In this document: piece by piece, positions 11,191-64,000 of the stretch
Position numbering within the stretch: position 1 is the first letter of the stretch
Layout of the letters: every line of letters begins with the position of its first letter
Source: Bdellovibrionales bacterium
GTDB taxonomy: Bacteria; Bdellovibrionota; Bdellovibrionia; Bdellovibrionales; UBA1609
DNA: 64,000 bases
Direction of reading: 5' to 3'
Assembly (NCBI GenBank): GCA_965242635.1
Contig: OZ251471.1
Location: forward strand, 1,332,322 to 1,396,321
Program-made: the position numbers and the translations under genes
The notes under the pieces: generated by a model
Databases searched by the model: none
Told to the model about the DNA's origin: nothing
Seen by the model: the letters and a program-made list of their open reading frames with translations, nothing else

Positions 11191-12279
11191 TTATCGGTGT
11201 TCTGTACCTTTTTTACGGGTGAGATAAGCCCCGGACACAATTTTTCTTAAGAGTCTCTCCCCTTTGGCATTTCGTCCCTCCTGGGGTGCACGAAGCACCA
11301 CACCCTCTCGAATATGGTCCACACCCTCCACGGCTGTTGGGCCATCGGCCAGCTCGTTGGCCCGCTCGATTTCATCGGGGCCGGGGCAGGGGGTTTCACC
11401 CAATAAAGGCACGGCCTTAAGGCCAAAGCCTTGGGCCAAAGCCTGAACCTCCTTAAAGTCCTCATACTCCCAGGGGCTTTCCTCTTTGTGTTTGACTATC
11501 ACTTCAAAAAGATAAAAGACCGGCCTTTGGTGGCCGTATTGCAGATCCTGCACTTTTGGCCCCACAATCTCGCCTATCACTCCAAAAGCCAGGGCCTCTG
11601 GCCACCGGTTTTTAAGGGTCGTTTTTATGGAGGGGAGGTGGGAACGCAAAGTGCGGTGATACACATTTTTTTCATTTTCTTTTAAGGCCATGTCTTTGGC
11701 AGAAAGCCCTTTTGAGGAGATAATCACCTCCTCCCCATAAAAGACCAGCATGGAAAGTGTGCCATGCAGTTTTTCGGTAATCAGCACAGGTGTGCCAGGT
11801 GGAATGGCCTCTGGATCAGACTTCCAGTTTTCCACATCATAGCGGGGGAGCCTCAGAGGGCTGGCATACATTTCCCCCGACATGTGCAAAGGGATCGGTG
11901 GTTCATACTTGATCACACCCAAAAATTTTGTTACATCCTCCCCCAACTCACATTCCTTTTGTTCCTCTGTTTCCGGATGGGTGAGACGGCCCTCTTTCAA
12001 GGGCAAAACCAGGCCTTGAGACAAGATCCCCCTCAGTTTTATGGCCTTGACCCTGTTTTTTTTGGAGCCGGCAAGCCTCCCCTCCACCCCCAACTTTTTT
12101 TGCAGGGGCAAAGAGACAAGAGCCTGTTCAGGGATATAAGCCACCTGTTCACCTGCCTGATGCTGGTCTTTTCCCACCACGATCTGCCAGCCTCCAATGC
12201 GAGCCACATCAAGGCGATCGGCATTGGGGTGTGCGGACACTTCATCCAGTTTTTGCACAGTAACCTTGAAATCGGCCAT
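11191..12279 (-). CDS. ATP-dependent RNA ligase, DRB0094 family
   Basis: N-terminal HPNADRL...VVGK...YIPE OB-like module, RLAGSKKNRVKAIKLRGILSQG, motif I ITEKLHGT, REGVVLR, C-terminal K..S..YL. Confidence 0.88.
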   Translation of the reverse strand: MADFKVTVQKLDEVSAHPNADRLDVARIGGWQIVVGKDQHQAGEQVAYIPEQALVSLPLQKKLGVEGRLAGSKKNRVKAIKLRGILSQGLVLPLKEGRLTHPETEEQKECELGEDVTKFLGVIKYEPPIPLHMSGEMYASPLRLPRYDVENWKSDPEAIPPGTPVLITEKLHGTLSMLVFYGEEVIISSKGLSAKDMALKENEKNVYHRTLRSHLPSIKTTLKNRWPEALAFGVIGEIVGPKVQDLQYGHQRPVFYLFEVIVKHKEESPWEYEDFKEVQALAQGFGLKAVPLLGETPCPGPDEIERANELADGPTAVEGVDHIREGVVLRAPQEGRNAKGERLLRKIVSGAYLTRKKGTEHR

Positions 12280-12364
12280 AATACCCTCCTTTGTTTGTAA
12301 ATTATACGGATTGGTTTTATTCTTTCACAATCAAGAGCTTTTATCAAGCAAAAACCAAGTTGGT

Positions 12365-59412: not shown

Positions 59413-60741
59413 ATGATTACTGAATTAAAACTTTCCAATTTCCGCTTGTTTGATGAGGAGGTGACTGTCCGCTTCCGGCCCATTACTGTATTGATAGGTC
59501 GAAACAACTCTGGCAAATCCTCCATTATCAAGTTTTTGCTTATGCTGAAACAGTCTCTTGACAGAGAAAGTACTCTGTTTTTAAACCCTCAGGGGGACAG
59601 AGTCAATTTAGGCAGGTTTGAGGATCTTCAAAATACTTTAAAAAAGAAAGAAGATTTGTTTTTTCAGTTGACTGCCAAAGAAAAAACAAGTTCTGGGGAT
59701 CCAGTCATATCTTATATAAAAAATCAATACCAAGTGCCTGTTGATCAAAGCAATGTTGAGGTGCTTTATGAAGTGCTTGCAAATGTATCTTATCAGCAAA
59801 AACAAAAGGCTGTAAAAGAATATAAAGTTATTGCCTCTTATAAGCAAAACAGTGTGGAATTAAAAAAAATTGTTTTTGATAATATTCAATTTTTGGATTT
59901 TACCAAGGAATGGAAAAATGCAATATATGATGTCCAACATAAGATTAGTTCTCTAAAAAACCAACAAAAGCGATCACAACAAGAAGAGTTATCAAAAGAA
60001 TTGATGCACACAGAACACCAACACATTGCAGAACAAAAAATGGTAAACACATTAAAAAATAATCTGAATAATCTCTATCATTTGGGACCTGTTAGGGATA
60101 ATGCAAAAGAACCTTCTGGTAAAGCATCACCACCGTTTACCACCGTTGGGCAGAAAGGGCAATACGTTCTTCAACATTTACAGGAAATAAAAGAGAAAAA
60201 ACAAAATGATTATAAATTCATTCTCCCTTATATACAAAATGTGGCAGGTGTTAAGGGGATAGATTTTGAAAAAAAAGAATTCACGTCAAAATGTTTTGGT
60301 GTTAATAAATTAACAGGTGCAAAAGTGCCAATATATGATTTTGGTTTTGGGGTCAGCCAGTGCCTCCCCATTTTTGTGCAAGGGGCTTTAATGTCTCAAT
60401 ACAGTTCTCTTATGGTGGAACAGCCGGAGGCTCAGTTGCACCCCACAGCTCAGTTGGCATTGGGCGAATTTTTTGCTGATCTGTGGAAAAAGCGACAAGT
60501 GGGATCCATTCTTGAAACTCATAGTGATAATATTTTACTGAGACTGAGGCGACTTATTGCAAAAGGAACACTCCAGCCTGAAGATGTGTCTGTTGCCTTT
60601 TTTGACTTTGATGAGGATAAAAACCAACCTGTGATTAAGAATCTGGATATTGCAGAGGATGGCTCCATGCAGGAAGGGCTCCCTTGGGAATTTTTTGGTA
60701 AAAATGTAAAAGAGATTGTTAAAATGGGAGCTGGAGAGTAA
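59413..60741 (+). CDS. ABC-type ATPase (AAA_15/AAA_21 with DUF3696-like C-terminus)
   Basis: GRNNSGKS Walker A, GFGVSQ signature, VEQPEAQLHP Walker B/D-loop, ETHS H-loop; AT-rich. Confidence 0.88.
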   Translation: MITELKLSNFRLFDEEVTVRFRPITVLIGRNNSGKSSIIKFLLMLKQSLDRESTLFLNPQGDRVNLGRFEDLQNTLKKKEDLFFQLTAKEKTSSGDPVISYIKNQYQVPVDQSNVEVLYEVLANVSYQQKQKAVKEYKVIASYKQNSVELKKIVFDNIQFLDFTKEWKNAIYDVQHKISSLKNQQKRSQQEELSKELMHTEHQHIAEQKMVNTLKNNLNNLYHLGPVRDNAKEPSGKASPPFTTVGQKGQYVLQHLQEIKEKKQNDYKFILPYIQNVAGVKGIDFEKKEFTSKCFGVNKLTGAKVPIYDFGFGVSQCLPIFVQGALMSQYSSLMVEQPEAQLHPTAQLALGEFFADLWKKRQVGSILETHSDNILLRLRRLIAKGTLQPEDVSVAFFDFDEDKNQPVIKNLDIAEDGSMQEGLPWEFFGKNVKEIVKMGAGE

Positions 60742-61292
60742 TGAATGCTTTGACTTCTGACTTTATTGCCATAGACACAAATGTTTTTGAGCATTTATTG
60801 AATCCACAGAACAATACAAATAATCATATTTCCAAGCTATTTATAAAACTTATGGATGACAAAATAACACTTTTAGTGGATGATAAAGATAGAATTGTCA
60901 ATGAGTATTCACAAAAAATAGAAAGAATCCTGGATGAGAAAGATGAGATGGGAGATGCAGTTAAAATACTTGGAACTACTTATTTATACTTTATGGACCA
61001 TAAACAACCGGTGCCAGTTGTTTCTCATGATTCTTTGATGACTGCCATAAAAAGCATTATCAAAAAAAAGAAGAAGTCTTCAGTAACAGACAGATTTTTT
61101 GTTTATGTGGCTTTTAAAAGTGATCGAATCTTAATAACCAATGACAAAAAAGATATGATTGATGAACGTAATCAGAAGGGAAAAAGAAAGCAAAAATTGC
61201 TTAAAATGGCCAAAAAACAGAGCCTCAAAAGGGCAGATATCCTCACTTCAGAGTCAGCTTGCGAGAAATTGAACATGGCCAATGGAGCGTGA
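60741..61292 (+). CDS. PIN-domain protein (putative RNase)
   Basis: IAIDTNVF, TDRFFVYVA...ILITNDKKD acidic PIN pattern; TAATG coupling to the ATPase. Confidence 0.75.
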   Translation: MNALTSDFIAIDTNVFEHLLNPQNNTNNHISKLFIKLMDDKITLLVDDKDRIVNEYSQKIERILDEKDEMGDAVKILGTTYLYFMDHKQPVPVVSHDSLMTAIKSIIKKKKKSSVTDRFFVYVAFKSDRILITNDKKDMIDERNQKGKRKQKLLKMAKKQSLKRADILTSESACEKLNMANGA

Positions 61293-61314
61293 AAACGGCT
61301 TTGTTTTTTGACTG

Positions 61315-61401
61315 AGAGCTTGCTCAGAGCAGAGATTCTACTTTTTGTGGAGTATGGGCTGGAATGTGGTCGTCCAAGAGCCTGCTCAGAGCAGAGATTC
61401 T
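61315..61401. repeat. Two 25-bp direct repeats with palindromic core TGCTCAGAGCA, 37-bp spacer
   Basis: agagc(t/c)tgctcagagcagagattct at 61315 and 61377. Confidence 0.75.
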
Positions 61402-61745
61402 GCCTTCTGTAGCCCCTCCTCCGGCCTTTATCCGGGATAACAAAGCTCAGGCAGAAGGAACAAGGCTCGACGGGCCAGGCAGGCTTTATATGAGAAATAT
61501 CAGTTTTTTGAGTTGACAGGCCTGTTATTATGTGTTGAGCTGTACCGCTGGATAAGGCGAATTCGAGAAAAACCCTGCAAAAAGGCCCGGATTCCCGCCT
61601 CTGCTTTTGCGAAAACAGGCTCATGAATGGGATAACGGCGAAAAAACAGCTTTTATTCAGGACAGGCGGGTTGACCTTAAAGAGAAATAACTGTTAAACC
61701 AAAAACCAATGGAGAACCAACAAAATTTTGCAAAGGCAAACGAAA

Positions 61746-62510
61746 ATGAAAAAAACAATCACGTTGCAGGATAAAGAATCACAAATATTATCTGGTTTTA
61801 GAAAAGCAGGGGATATTTACAAAGAGCTGTCCCTGGATCCAGCCACTTGTCGTCTTTATCTGCAAAAAATCAAAGACATAAAAATTCCTCTGTTTCCGGA
61901 TGATTATATTATTATTCACGGAGGGGAACAAATGGCTACAGGTGATTGCAACAACAACGAGGAACATAATCCCACTTTAAAAACCACTTTTCCTTTTACA
62001 TTAAATGGCAATAAAACAACAGAACATTTTAAAACAGCAAAAGTAACTGGAAAAGAAATTTGTTTGTTGGATAAAGAATTGGACAATCCTCTTTTGTTTG
62101 TCACTGTAAACGAGATAACTGACACTTTTGTCCAAAATGACTGGACACTTGTTATTCAGGATAAGGATGTTTATTGGACAATACCCTTTGATGAAGAAAA
62201 GGTGGTTGATCTGGAAAAATGTGCCAAATCAGATCGCCGGCCACCCAAAGGACAAAAATTTTATAAAATTAAAATTGATGGAGAAAAATATAAAGTACAC
62301 AGTCAAAAGATGACAGGGGCTGAGATTTTGGGATTGGCAGGCAAAACTTATGATGAGTGGTCTTTAAATCAAAAGTTTCATGGAGGCAGGAGAAAACCCA
62401 TTGAATTAAAAGAATTTGTTGACTTTTCTCTTAAAGGTATTGAACGTTTTGAAACTGTCAGAAAACAAGCTCAGCAGGGGGCCTTTCATGGAAAAGCTCC
62501 TGTTGCCTGA
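61746..62510 (+). CDS. Multi-ubiquitin (three beta-grasp) protein, BubA-like precursor
   Basis: Three Multi_ubiq-like segments; linker DLEKCAKSDRRPPKG..YKIKIDG; MTGAEILGLAG; VDF..KGIERFET; ends QAQQG-AFHGKAPVA. Confidence 0.85.
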   Translation: MKKTITLQDKESQILSGFRKAGDIYKELSLDPATCRLYLQKIKDIKIPLFPDDYIIIHGGEQMATGDCNNNEEHNPTLKTTFPFTLNGNKTTEHFKTAKVTGKEICLLDKELDNPLLFVTVNEITDTFVQNDWTLVIQDKDVYWTIPFDEEKVVDLEKCAKSDRRPPKGQKFYKIKIDGEKYKVHSQKMTGAEILGLAGKTYDEWSLNQKFHGGRRKPIELKEFVDFSLKGIERFETVRKQAQQGAFHGKAPVA

Positions 62511-62874
62511 AGAGGATTTGGAATATCTAAAAGCCAATTTCCCTGATTATGAATGTAGGAGGGAAAATTCCAAAAAAGGGATTATTATCCATGATTATCC
62601 ACTGCCGAAAGGTTATAATCCAGATAAATCCAGTCTGATGCTTATTATACCGGAGAATTATCCCACAACAAAAATTGACATGTTTTATTTCTCACCCAAC
62701 ATAGAAAGGCAGGATAGAGCTACAATAGAAGCTTTGAGTGATGAAAATCATTTTAACCAAAATTGGCAAAGATGGTCGAGGCATTATGATTGGCGACCAG
62801 GCATAGATAATATTTCCACTCATATATCGTATATACATAATCAATTAAAATCGGAAGCAGGCACAGGACAATGA
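62488..62874 (+). CDS. Prokaryotic E2 family E protein, BubB-like
   Basis: IHDYPLPKGYN, LIIPENYP..KIDMFYFSP, WQRWSRH..WRPGIDNISTH; start overlaps the Ubl tail. Confidence 0.88.
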   Translation: MEKLLLPEEDLEYLKANFPDYECRRENSKKGIIIHDYPLPKGYNPDKSSLMLIIPENYPTTKIDMFYFSPNIERQDRATIEALSDENHFNQNWQRWSRHYDWRPGIDNISTHISYIHNQLKSEAGTGQ

Positions 62875-64000
62875 ATTCTTCTCTTGTTTTAAAAGAAAGT
62901 GATTATAAGGCACTTAAAAAGCACTTATATCCAGGAGATAATCTGGAGTTTTCAGCGATAATGCTTTGTCATTATGGACGAGGCAAAGAGGGTTTTCGCC
63001 TTATGGTCAAGGAAGTAATAAAAATACCCAAGGATAAATACGATGAACAGAAAGCCAATTATTTATCCTGGGCTTTTTCTGAATATATGACACCAAAAAA
63101 GATAGAAAAAACAGATAAAGAAGGGTTGTCTGTTTTCACCATTCACAGTCACCCCAATGGATACAGTCAATTTTCCCAAGTTGATGATAAAAATGATAAA
63201 TCTCTTTTTCATTCGATAAACAACTGGTTTGATGATAAAAGGCCCAATGGCTCAGCCATTATGTTGCCAAGTGGAGAGATAATAGCCAGACTGGTTACAG
63301 GCAAAGGGCAGTTTAAACCAATTCAAAAAGTGTCAGTTGCAGGTAAAAATATTAAAATATGGCACTCTTCCAATATCCAGGAAAAGGTGCCTGATTATGG
63401 CCTGAAGATTTTACAAACCTTTGGAAAGGGCACTTTTAGTACTTTAAGAAAGATGAAAGCAGGTGTGGTGGGATGTTCAGGAACGGGAAGTATTATAGTG
63501 GAGTTATTAACCCGTAATTGTGTTGGAAGTCTTGTCCTGGTGGATCCGGATGTTGTGGAAGAAAAAAATCTTAACCGCATTTTAAATACAGGTCAAATGG
63601 ACAGCAAAAACAAAATACATAAAGTGTCTGCTTTAAAAAAAGCTATTTTAAAAACAGGCATAGGCACACAAGTGTCTGTTTATGCCAAAACCACAGGAAA
63701 TAAAGAGGTTATAGAGGCATTGACTGATTGTGATGTGATTTTTGGTTGTGTTGACTCTGCAACAGGAAGGTATCATTTGGAATGTATGGCAACTGCTTAT
63801 TTTATTCCCTACTTTGATATTGGTGTATATATTTCAGCTGATAATCATGGAGGAATCAATCATGCAGATGTGGCTTCTCATTATATATACCCGGAAAGCA
63901 ACAGTTTGATTTCCAGAGGTGTTTACACAACTGAACAACTGACTTCAGAGAGCTGGAGACAAACTGACAAAGATTATTATAAAAAAAATAAAAAAGCAGG
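62871..64000 (+). CDS. JAB/JAMM peptidase - ThiF/E1 fusion, BubCD-like (3' end outside window)
   Basis: Manual translation: DNLEFSA (E), FTIHSHPNGYSQFSQVD (HxH-x7-S-x2-D), VVGCSGTGS, VDPDVVEEKNLNRI, GCVDS..GR; ATGA overlap with the E2 stop. Confidence 0.88.
   Translation, partial: MNSSLVLKESDYKALKKHLYPGDNLEFSAIMLCHYGRGKEGFRLMVKEVIKIPKDKYDEQKANYLSWAFSEYMTPKKIEKTDKEGLSVFTIHSHPNGYSQFSQVDDKNDKSLFHSINNWFDDKRPNGSAIMLPSGEIIARLVTGKGQFKPIQKVSVAGKNIKIWHSSNIQEKVPDYGLKILQTFGKGTFSTLRKMKAGVVGCSGTGSIIVELLTRNCVGSLVLVDPDVVEEKNLNRILNTGQMDSKNKIHKVSALKKAILKTGIGTQVSVYAKTTGNKEVIEALTDCDVIFGCVDSATGRYHLECMATAYFIPYFDIGVYISADNHGGINHADVASHYIYPESNSLISRGVYTTEQLTSESWRQTDKDYYKKNKKA

What the first reader, a model, noticed from the sequence alone, without database searches (positions are those of the whole stretch)
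61746..64000. Bub-type bacterial ubiquitination operon with all catalytic signatures visible
Seen: triple-Ubl gene, E2 and JAMM-E1 fusion, all overlapping. The Ubl has QQG (Gly codon 62478-62480) followed by a 9-aa tail encoded across the E2 RBS and start, so it needs processing; the JAMM motif that could do this is intact. The E2 has no active-site Cys but has WQRWSRH. Established: Multi_ubiq / Prok-E2_E / JAB-ThiF operons correspond to the Bub class related to anti-phage Bil systems, with a Ser-based E2. To my knowledge their targets and biological role are largely unresolved. The E1 catalytic Cys region lies outside the window.
Basis: partly seen in the sequence, partly recalled or inferred. 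Interest (0 to 1): 0.75.

Follow-up and report, generated by a model that had tools for sequence, protein, structure and literature searches.

The report
Bub ubiquitin-like operon with ATPase–PIN partner
This is a complete bacterial ubiquitin-like protein-tagging operon of the known "Bub" type that uses serine and tyrosine in place of cysteine. It travels as one horizontally acquired block with an ATPase and a PIN nuclease, and that pair is a candidate partner for a system whose biological role is still unknown.

Summary
Window 61746-64000 encodes a three-β-grasp Ubl (BubA), a Prok-E2_E E2 (BubB) and a JAMM–E1 fusion (BubCD). BubA is QQG plus a 9-aa tail. BubB has Asp64/Ser97/His99 and no conserved Cys. 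The genes overlap by 23 and 4 nt.

The whole genome shows the E1 is full length (463 aa). A DUF6527 protease (BubE) follows 73 nt downstream. All catalytic residues of the Citrobacter Bub structures are conserved.

One point is wrong. There is no E1 catalytic Cys. The invariant crossover-loop Tyr378 takes that role, and its codon starts 2 nt past the window end.

The locus is a member of the known Type I Bub family. The split Ubl/E2 form is already catalogued.

What appears new in the papers I could search:
- The four Bub genes are the 3' part of a low-GC six-gene block whose first two genes are a Menshen NsnB-like ABC ATPase and a PIN nuclease.
- This pairing marks one clade of Bub operons spread over three phyla. 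The two modules have co-diversified.
- Outside Bdellovibrionota the block sits between mod and res of type III R-M operons.
- A second, distant Ubl–E2–JAMM/E1–ATPase–PIN cassette lies in the same genome.

Functional coupling of the two modules is inferred, not shown.

The parts
59413..60741 (+). NsnB-like (Menshen-type) ABC ATPase of the AAA_15 family, 442 aa. First gene of the six-gene block.
   Evidence: Pfam AAA_15 4.5e-26. PADLOC NsnB 5.5e-50 and PDC-M55A 2.2e-46. Found directly upstream of the Bub genes in 19 genome loci and 3 metagenome loci. Its tree is congruent with the BubCD tree (Mantel r 0.76, 0 of 5000 permutations).
60741..61292 (+). PIN-fold nuclease, 183 aa. Its start overlaps the ATPase stop by 1 nt.
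   Evidence: AF2 model pLDDT 91, pTM 0.88. The best Foldseek matches are VapC/PIN proteins such as 5h4g, 1v8o and 2bsq, with probability 1.0. D12, D47, D117, N134 and D135 are invariant and E55 is nearly invariant in 16 orthologues.
61293..61745 (.). 453-nt spacer between PIN and BubA, unusually long for this cassette. It holds a 34-nt direct repeat (61315-61348 and 61377-61410).
   Evidence: In most related loci the PIN-to-BubA gap is -11 to +34 nt. Here only the last ~50 nt are conserved with the nearest relative. The spacer is unique in the genome. Repeat found.
61746..62510 (+). BubA precursor, 254 aa, with three β-grasp domains. The mature C-terminus is predicted at Gly245 (codon 62478-62480). 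The 9-aa tail is encoded at 62481-62507.
   Evidence: Pfam Multi_ubiq. AF2 model and Foldseek hits to the Citrobacter, E. coli and M. brachiatum three-domain Ubl structures. ERFET..Q.QQG is invariant across 50 aligned homologues.
62488..62874 (+). BubB, a Ser-type E2, 128 aa. Asp64 (62677-62679), Ser97 (62776-62778), His99 (62782-62784).
   Evidence: Prok-E2_E 5.1e-32. Citrobacter BubB 9eae_C 2e-18, with D299, S333 and H335 aligned. D is conserved in 81/83 loci, S in 83/83 and H in 83/83.
62871..64000 (+). BubCD, a JAMM peptidase-E1 fusion. The window holds the first 376 of 463 aa. The gene ends at window-equivalent 64262. BubE (DUF6527, 102 aa) follows at window-equivalent 64335-64643.
   Evidence: Citrobacter BubCD 9ea4 4.3e-64 over residues 4-436. 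E26, H92, H94, S102, D105, R236 and Y378 are conserved in 76-77 of 77 loci, and the crossover loop has no Cys in 75 of 77. BubE: Pfam DUF6527 3.5e-12. In BubE, S65 is kept in 71/71 loci, H76 in 70/71, and the four Zn Cys (C29, C34, C73, C75) in 65-71 of 71.

Best explanation
The region is a complete, apparently functional Type I Bub (bacterial ubiquitination-like) operon of the subtype with separate Ubl and E2 genes.

Predicted pathway, by homology with the Citrobacter system:
1. The JAMM domain of BubCD removes the nine residues after Gly245 of BubA.
2. The E1 domain adenylates that Gly.
3. BubA passes as an oxyester to Tyr378 in the E1 crossover loop.
4. It then passes to Ser97 of BubB, assisted by His99 and Asp64.
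5. It ends on a lysine of a target that is still unknown.
6. BubE, a Ser65/His76 protease with a C4 zinc site, removes the tag again.

Shown here: the gene content, the folds and the conservation of every catalytic residue. Inferred: every chemical step.

The four Bub genes are the 3' part of a six-gene, low-GC, horizontally acquired block. Its first two genes are a Menshen NsnB-like ABC ATPase and a PIN nuclease with intact acidic residues. I consider it about even odds that this pair works with Bub, as sensor/adaptor and nuclease effector, or as the target of tagging, in a defence or abortive-infection response.
For: Family and catalytic residues: Pfam calls. PDB matches to Citrobacter BubCD (4e-64) and BubB (2e-18), with E28, H91, H93, D104, R227 and Y370, and D299, S333 and H335, all aligned to identical residues. 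These residues are near-invariant across 77-83 loci. BubE keeps the Ser-His dyad and four Cys. The Ubl model has three β-grasp domains and a disordered tail. The mechanism is taken from Ye et al., bioRxiv 10.1101/2024.11.21.623953.

One block: GC is 32-40% from the ATPase start to the BubE end, against 46-52% in the rsmD and gmk/yicC flanks.

Linkage with ATPase-PIN:
- The loci with the pair lie in one clade of the BubCD tree (SH-aLRT 96). Three changes of state are needed, against 14.7 for shuffled labels.
- The PIN-to-BubA gap is -11 to +34 nt in most loci.
- The ATPase and BubCD trees are congruent.
- The same pair sits between type III mod and res without Bub and with Bub.
- A second, distant Ubl-E2-JAMM/E1-ATPase-PIN cassette is conserved in four genomes of the genus.
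- 26 further Bub loci have a different AAA_15 ATPase starting right after BubE.
Against: No biochemical or expression data exist for this locus, and no RNA runs were found.

Here, and in the closest relative, PIN and BubA are 453-542 nt apart, so the two modules may be transcribed separately.

The ATPase-PIN pair also exists without Bub. Four Bdellovibrionota Bub loci nested in the clade lack it. Bub operons of cultured bacteria carry regulators (CapH/CapP, CapK/CapS) upstream instead. The pair is therefore not required for Bub in general.

Bub operons have not yet been shown to protect against phage (PMC13373217).

The Prok-JAB Pfam score is 0.6 bit below its cut-off.
Confidence: 0.8

Rival explanations
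1. There are two autonomous systems that merely travel together. ATPase-PIN is a self-contained abortive-infection module, a minimal Menshen/PARIS-like sensor plus nuclease. Bub is a separate conjugation system. They are linked only because compact defence cassettes are co-selected and co-transferred.
For: The ATPase-PIN pair occurs without Bub inside type III R-M operons. Bub occurs without it in most loci. This locus has a 453-nt spacer with its own conserved upstream ~50 nt. Menshen operons are often next to R-M and BREX without a proven functional link (PMC12065111).
Against: Gene order and tight or overlapping junctions persist down to 39% ATPase identity and across three phyla. The two modules have co-diversified. 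A second ATPase-PIN pair, at most 29% identical over part of the ATPase, is joined to a second, distant Ubl-E2-E1 set. A third type of AAA_15 ATPase abuts BubE in 26 loci.
Confidence: 0.4
2. The operon is a stress-response protein-modification system with no role in phage defence.
For: No Bub operon has yet protected E. coli from phage. Authors in the field state that a global stress role is possible.
Against: The distribution is patchy: close BubCD homologues occur in only 2 of 14 other genomes of the genus. The block is a low-GC island. It sits between mod and res of type III R-M in relatives and is joined to nuclease-bearing ATPase modules. One relative carries it beside an integrase and a relaxase.
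Confidence: 0.15
3. The Ubl and E2 are made as one BubAB fusion by a +1 ribosomal slip on GGG-G at the Gly codon. In that case the 9-aa tail is a minor product.
For: The E2 frame is +1 relative to the Ubl frame. A slip on the G-run 62477-62481 would read ...QQG-PFMEKLLLPEED, which resembles the fused relatives. The nearest relative has the same geometry.
Against: The E2 has its own ATG 6 nt after a G-rich Shine-Dalgarno-like element. Most split loci have frame offsets and sequences with no slippery run, and tails of 0-9 aa. Nothing requires a fusion, because Citrobacter BubA and BubB work when expressed separately.
Confidence: 0.05

Closest known systems
Type I Bub operon (earlier called 6E.1 or the DUF6527 operon), Citrobacter sp. 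RHBSTW-00271 BubAB/BubCD/BubE (Ye et al., bioRxiv 10.1101/2024.11.21.623953; PDB 9ea4, 9eae, 9eav)
   Same: Same four domain families in the same order. The JAMM-E1 fusion matches at 4e-64 and the E2 at 2e-18. Every catalytic residue is identical: JAMM E/HxH/D, adenylation Arg, crossover Tyr, E2 Asp/Ser/His, BubE Ser/His plus four Cys. The Ubl has three β-grasp domains and ends in a conserved Gly.
   Different: Ubl and E2 are separate, overlapping genes, not a fusion. That subtype is already listed in the paper's Table S1. Ubl domains 1 and 2 have no sequence-level match to the solved three-domain Ubls. No CapH/CapP, CapW or CapK/CapS regulator is present. An ABC ATPase and a PIN nuclease precede the operon.
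Menshen (NsnA-NsnB-NsnC) antiphage system (Li et al., NAR 2025, PMC12065111)
   Same: The ATPase is NsnB-like (PADLOC NsnB 5.5e-50). Its small partner has a PIN fold, like the N-terminal domain of NsnC that binds NsnB. Menshen is also often found with type III R-M.
   Different: There is no NsnA (ParB-DUF262) sensor. The PIN protein has no C-terminal toxin domain and keeps the acidic catalytic residues that NsnC's 'inactive PIN' lacks. The pair is joined to a Ubl-conjugation operon, which that paper does not mention.
Bil (bacterial ISG15-like) systems
   Same: Both are bacterial Ubl-E2-E1-JAB sets linked to anti-phage immunity. Some Bil Ubls also have three β-grasp domains.
   Different: [quoted passage not shown] It has no DUF6527. 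None of these fit this locus.
PARIS (AriA/AriB) and PrrC: ABC-ATPase or nuclease modules that back up R-M systems
   Same: Both pair an ABC ATPase sensor with a nuclease effector. The module is embedded in or next to R-M operons in relatives of this cassette.
   Different: The effector is a PIN nuclease, not Toprim or an anticodon nuclease. No trigger is known. The resemblance rests on gene architecture and position only.

Membership tests
Type I Bub operon | Ubl with β-grasp domain(s) ending in a conserved Gly that becomes the C-terminus | tested here: met
   Multi_ubiq 6.9e-11. Three β-grasp domains in the AF2 model. QQG (Gly245) is invariant in 50 of 50 aligned homologues.
Type I Bub operon | Prok-E2_E E2 with a catalytic Ser plus His and Asp, and no catalytic Cys | tested here: met
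   Prok-E2_E 5.1e-32. D64, S97 and H99 align to Citrobacter D299, S333 and H335. They are conserved in 81-83 of 83 loci, and the lone Cys23 is not conserved.
Type I Bub operon | JAB/JAMM peptidase fused to an E1 adenylation domain (BubCD), both active sites intact | tested here: met
   9ea4 4.3e-64 over residues 4-436. E26, H92, H94, S102, D105 and R236 are conserved in 76-77 of 77 loci. The Pfam Prok-JAB score of 24.4 bits is just under the 25-bit cut-off.
Type I Bub operon | E1 crossover loop without Cys and with an invariant Tyr | tested here: met
   The loop 351-386 has no Cys. Tyr378 aligns to Y370 and is conserved in 77 of 77 loci. Its codon lies 2 nt beyond the window end.
Type I Bub operon | DUF6527 protein (BubE) with a Ser-His dyad and C4 zinc site | tested here: met
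   DUF6527 3.5e-12 for the ORF at window-equivalent 64335-64643. S65 is conserved in 71/71 loci, H76 in 70/71, and C29, C34, C73 and C75 in 65-71 of 71.
Type I Bub operon | Ubl and E2 encoded as one BubAB fusion (as the paper's text says) | tested here: not met
   They are separate genes in different frames with a 23-nt overlap. The paper's own Table S1 files operons with separate Ubl and E2 under Type I. About 56 of 83 related loci are split. I therefore treat fusion as common but not defining.
Type I Bub operon | Cleavage after the Gly by BubCD; Tyr and Ser oxyester intermediates; deconjugation by BubE | not testable with these tools
   Biochemistry only. Inferred from residue conservation.
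Menshen (NsnABC) | NsnA sensor with ParB-DUF262 and ParBDB domains | tested here: not met
   No such gene lies in the block or its flanks. The neighbours are rsmD, gmk and yicC.
Menshen (NsnABC) | NsnB ABC ATPase (AAA_15, DUF3696 tail) | tested here: met
   PADLOC NsnB 5.5e-50 over the whole length, and AAA_15 4.5e-26. Pfam did not call DUF3696 in this copy, but it did in the second cassette's ATPase.
Menshen (NsnABC) | NsnC: an inactive PIN-like N-terminal domain plus a C-terminal nuclease or toxin domain | tested here: not met
   The 183-aa protein is a PIN fold only. Its acidic residues D12, E55, D117 and D135 are conserved.
Bil (Type I/II) | Cys-based E2 and an IAD-AAD-CYS E1, with a separate JAB | tested here: not met
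   The E2 has no conserved Cys. The E1 is a 463-aa JAB fusion of the single-adenylation-domain type.

The most novel reading that the evidence does not exclude
In this clade Bub is one arm of a composite immune module. The NsnB-like ABC ATPase senses a phage cue, as AriA or NsnB are proposed to do. Ubl conjugation by BubB/BubCD, reversed by BubE and the JAMM domain, then licenses or restrains the PIN nuclease. It could do this by tagging the ATPase-PIN complex, or by using the ATPase as the missing substrate adaptor (an 'E3'). The whole module would act as a second line of defence embedded in type III R-M operons. This would give Bub its first effector and target.
Probability: 0.3. Interest if true: 0.8.

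Novelty: new variant of a known kind. Interest (0 to 1): 0.58.

Why it matters
Bub systems are biochemically striking because they conjugate a ubiquitin-like protein through Tyr and Ser oxyesters with no cysteine. As of 2026 no phage-defence role had been demonstrated (PMC13373217), and I found no report of an effector or target.

On its own this locus is one more member of the family. The comparative work adds testable leads:
- One Bub clade is welded to an ABC-ATPase/PIN-nuclease pair.
- The same kind of pairing arose again with a distant Ubl system in the same genus.
- In other phyla the block sits between mod and res of type III R-M operons.

Together these strengthen the case that Bub is an immune system. 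They also name candidate partners for pull-down and reconstitution.

A smaller point concerns the JAMM active site. It is fully conserved in all 10 loci whose BubA ends exactly at QQG. The peptidase must therefore do more than trim the precursor, contrary to the tentative suggestion in the Bub paper.

Tried and rejected
- **Sequencing error at the G-run.** I tested whether a homopolymer error splits a true BubAB fusion. Rejected: contigs from two other samples show no indel, and a relative whose Ubl is 84% identical has the same layout.
- **Empty-site test.** rsmD and gmk are far apart in all 14 other genomes of the genus, so no empty site could be shown.
- **RNA evidence.** No run labelled as RNA holds the locus.
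- **Ca2+ filament residues.** Mapping the Ca2+-binding residues of three-domain Ubls failed. Only the C-terminal domain aligns by sequence with the solved structures.
- **Other libraries.** PADLOC and NCBIfam have no models for BubA, BubB or BubE. Rfam finds nothing in the region.
- **Spacer.** The 453-nt spacer is not a repeated element in the genome.
- **Citrobacter koseri plasmid.** The 'ATP-binding' and 'DNA-binding' pair upstream of its Bub operon looked like the same layout. It is not homologous to the pair here. From its annotation, its position and the 2026 paper's description I take it to be the CapK/CapS regulator pair.
- **Programmed +1 frameshift.** Considered but not needed (see rival explanations).
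Full report
**What is in the sequence**

Three co-oriented, overlapping ORFs fill window 61746-64000:
- A 254-aa protein at 61746-62510.
- A 128-aa protein at 62488-62874, overlapping the first by 23 nt.
- An ORF from 62871 that runs off the window, overlapping the second by 4 nt.

Pfam assigns Multi_ubiq, Prok-E2_E and Prok-JAB plus ThiF to them. The G-run 62477-62481 that carries the Gly codon also serves as the G-rich ribosome-binding element 6 nt before the E2 ATG.

**Completing the operon from the genome**

The window is G000:C1:1332322-1396321 of a single 2.0-Mb contig. Earlier notes and the titles of the nearest relatives place it in Bdellovibrionales.

Downstream sequence shows that the E1 fusion is full length at 463 aa. 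After a 73-nt gap comes a 102-aa ORF that matches DUF6527, the BubE family. The next genes are gmk and yicC on the opposite strand. rsmD lies upstream of the block.

**Identity with the characterised Bub system**

The JAMM-E1 protein matches Citrobacter BubCD (PDB 9ea4) at 4.3e-64 over residues 4-436. The E2 matches Citrobacter BubB (9eae_C) at 2e-18. I read the alignments against the residue numbers in Ye et al.. The correspondences are:
- JAMM E28, H91, H93, D104 = E26, H92, H94, D105.
- Adenylation R227 = R236.
- Crossover-loop Y370 = Y378, within KAGYLQS.
- E2 D299, S333, H335 = D64, S97, H99.

Across related loci these residues are conserved in 76-77 of 77 BubCD sequences and 81-83 of 83 BubB sequences. 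The crossover loop has no Cys in 75 of 77. BubE keeps S65 in 71/71 loci and H76 in 70/71, and its four Zn-site Cys in 65-71 of 71.

Bub E1s use Tyr. That Tyr's codon begins at window-equivalent 64002, two bases past the window end.

**The Ubl**

I made an AlphaFold2 model from 50 homologues. It is confident (pLDDT 91, pTM 0.83). It shows three β-grasp units, at about 1-67, 85-146 and 173-239, and a disordered end from residue 240.

The best Foldseek matches are the three-domain Ubls of Citrobacter (9d5a), E. coli ZDHYS365 (9cd2) and M. brachiatum (8u38, 9d5b). The last domain superposes on Citrobacter BubA 155-229 with a TM-score of 0.81.

Domains 1 and 2 have no sequence-level match to those structures. 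I could not test whether the Ca2+ filament sites are kept.

**The split junction and the tail**

The Bub paper's text says Type I operons encode a BubAB fusion. I therefore tested whether a homopolymer error splits a fusion here. It does not:
- Contigs from two other samples cover the junction with no indel.
- A genome whose Ubl is 84% identical has the same 23-nt overlap and the tail GVYGKIPSA.

Among 83 related loci about 27 are fused and 56 are split. Tails range from 0 to 9 aa, are not conserved, and arise from the overlap with the E2 start. The paper's own Table S1 lists Type I operons with separate Ubl and E2 genes. The split form is therefore known.

In all 10 loci where BubA ends exactly at QQG, the JAMM residues are all intact. 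This implies that the peptidase has a role beyond trimming the precursor.

**The surroundings: one six-gene block**

Directly upstream and co-oriented lie two more genes:
- A 442-aa AAA_15 ABC ATPase. Its best PADLOC match is NsnB of Menshen, at 5.5e-50.
- A 183-aa protein that starts on the ATPase stop codon. Its AF2 model (pLDDT 91) is a PIN fold, with VapC-type top hits. The acidic residues D12, E55, D117 and D135 are conserved.

GC content is 32-40% from the ATPase start to the BubE end, against 46-52% in both flanks. All six genes therefore look like one acquired block. Close BubCD homologues occur in only 2 of 14 other genomes of the genus.

**Is the ATPase-PIN link more than adjacency?**

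A scan of one genome per species returned 80 related loci. In 19 loci in all (17 from that scan, plus this locus and two relatives fetched by exact protein look-up) the same ATPase and PIN genes sit immediately upstream of BubA.
- On the BubCD tree these loci lie in one clade (SH-aLRT 96). Three changes of state are needed, against 14.7 for shuffled labels.
- Four Bdellovibrionota loci nested in that clade lack the pair. They have fused BubAB, and the simplest reading is a loss.
- The clade spans Bdellovibrionota, Nitrospirota and Pseudomonadota.
- The PIN-to-BubA distance is -11 to +34 nt in most loci, which is typical of one operon.
- That distance is 453 nt here and 542 nt in the closest relative. 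Only the last ~50 nt are conserved between the two.
- The ATPase and BubCD trees agree (Mantel r = 0.76; 0 of 5000 permutations reach it).

A metagenome scan with the PIN alignment gave two kinds of context:
- The same six-gene block with a single-domain Ubl. Three metagenome records were returned, apparently copies of one sequence.
- ATPase-PIN pairs without Bub, embedded between the mod and res genes of type III R-M operons (three loci long enough to judge).

I then clustered the neighbours of all 83 loci. Outside Bdellovibrionota the block itself lies between type III mod and res. The order is Mod-ATPase-PIN-BubA-BubB-BubCD-BubE-Res, with both flanks present in four loci.

In the sister clade, 26 loci carry a different ~540-aa AAA_15 ATPase that starts within a few bases of the BubE stop. 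Its best PADLOC hits are AriAB and NsnB. These loci often have CapH/CapP regulators upstream and type I R-M genes nearby.

**A second cassette in the same genome**

At C1:1537388-1541499 (minus strand) lie five genes in a row:
- A 155-aa Multi_ubiq protein.
- A 140-aa protein that may be an E2.
- A 483-aa JAMM-E1. It is 27% identical to this BubCD and has a CxxC in its crossover region.
- An AAA_15 plus DUF3696 ATPase.
- A PIN-like protein.

The same five-gene order is kept in three other genomes of the genus at 56-75% identity. A Ubl-conjugation set has therefore been joined to an NsnB-like ATPase and a PIN protein at least twice.

**Reading**

The core identification as a Type I Bub operon is secure. 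Its chemistry is inferred from conserved residues.

I rate functional coupling to ATPase-PIN at about even odds.
- For: recurrence, co-diversification and operon-like spacing in most loci.
- Against: the long spacer in this genome, independent occurrence of each module, and the absence of the pair from Bub operons of cultured bacteria. Those carry regulators instead. For example, the upstream pair in a Citrobacter koseri plasmid is not homologous to the pair here and is most likely the CapK/CapS regulator pair.

**Literature**

Neither the Bub papers nor the Menshen paper mentions this association. A 2026 paper still states that Bub has not been shown to protect against phage.

**Verdict**

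The added interest lies in the conserved ATPase-PIN partnership and the embedding in R-M operons.

Noticed in passing
own genome G000:C1:1537388-1541499 (minus strand); L104:3388-7499: A second, distant Ubl cassette: Multi_ubiq (155 aa, ending ..LSSGPTPVA), a 140-aa possible E2, a JAMM-E1 (483 aa, CxxC in the crossover region), an AAA_15+DUF3696 ATPase, and a PIN-like 158-aa protein. There is no DUF6527 gene. An NYN-domain gene lies upstream. The five-gene order is conserved in three other genomes of the genus.
   Followed up: partly
L014, L017, L018, L021 (also L009-L013, L015): In Gammaproteobacteria and other non-Bdellovibrionota MAGs the ATPase-PIN-Bub block lies between the mod (N6_N4_Mtase, ~860 aa) and res (ResIII, ~930-970 aa) genes of a type III R-M operon. 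This makes an eight-gene array with near-zero intergenic gaps.
   Followed up: partly
L024-L078, 26 loci (e.g. L066:12856-14556): In the Bub clade without the upstream pair, a ~540-566-aa AAA_15 ATPase starts 0-20 nt after BubE. Its best PADLOC hits are AriAB and NsnB. The C-terminal half has no Pfam match.
   Followed up: partly
L019, L020, L022, L023 (upstream of fused BubAB): Four Bdellovibrionota loci carry two conserved genes of unknown function (~400 aa and ~335 aa, no Pfam or PADLOC hit) in the position that ATPase-PIN takes in their sister loci.
   Followed up: no
L006-L085 (record titles): Many of the 80 genomes carrying this Ubl clade are MAGs whose names point to sponge symbionts, such as Poriferihabitans, Porisulfidus, Spongiihabitans and Tethybacter. 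They span about ten phyla, which suggests wide horizontal spread within one habitat.
   Followed up: no
window 61315-61348 and 61377-61410: A 34-nt direct repeat (88% identical, 62 nt apart) lies in the unusually long, non-conserved spacer between PIN and BubA. It may be a regulator-binding site or a scar of an insertion.
   Followed up: partly
L005:1482-4640 and 11486-12301: In a relative whose Ubl is 63% identical, the six-gene block sits beside Replic_Relax, HTH_17 and phage-integrase genes and is followed by an NYN-domain gene. There it rides on a mobile element.
   Followed up: no
window-equivalent 64335 (L003:6657): BubE appears to start at GTG with no good Shine-Dalgarno element at normal spacing. 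An ATG 14 nt upstream is in another frame. The true start is uncertain.
   Followed up: no
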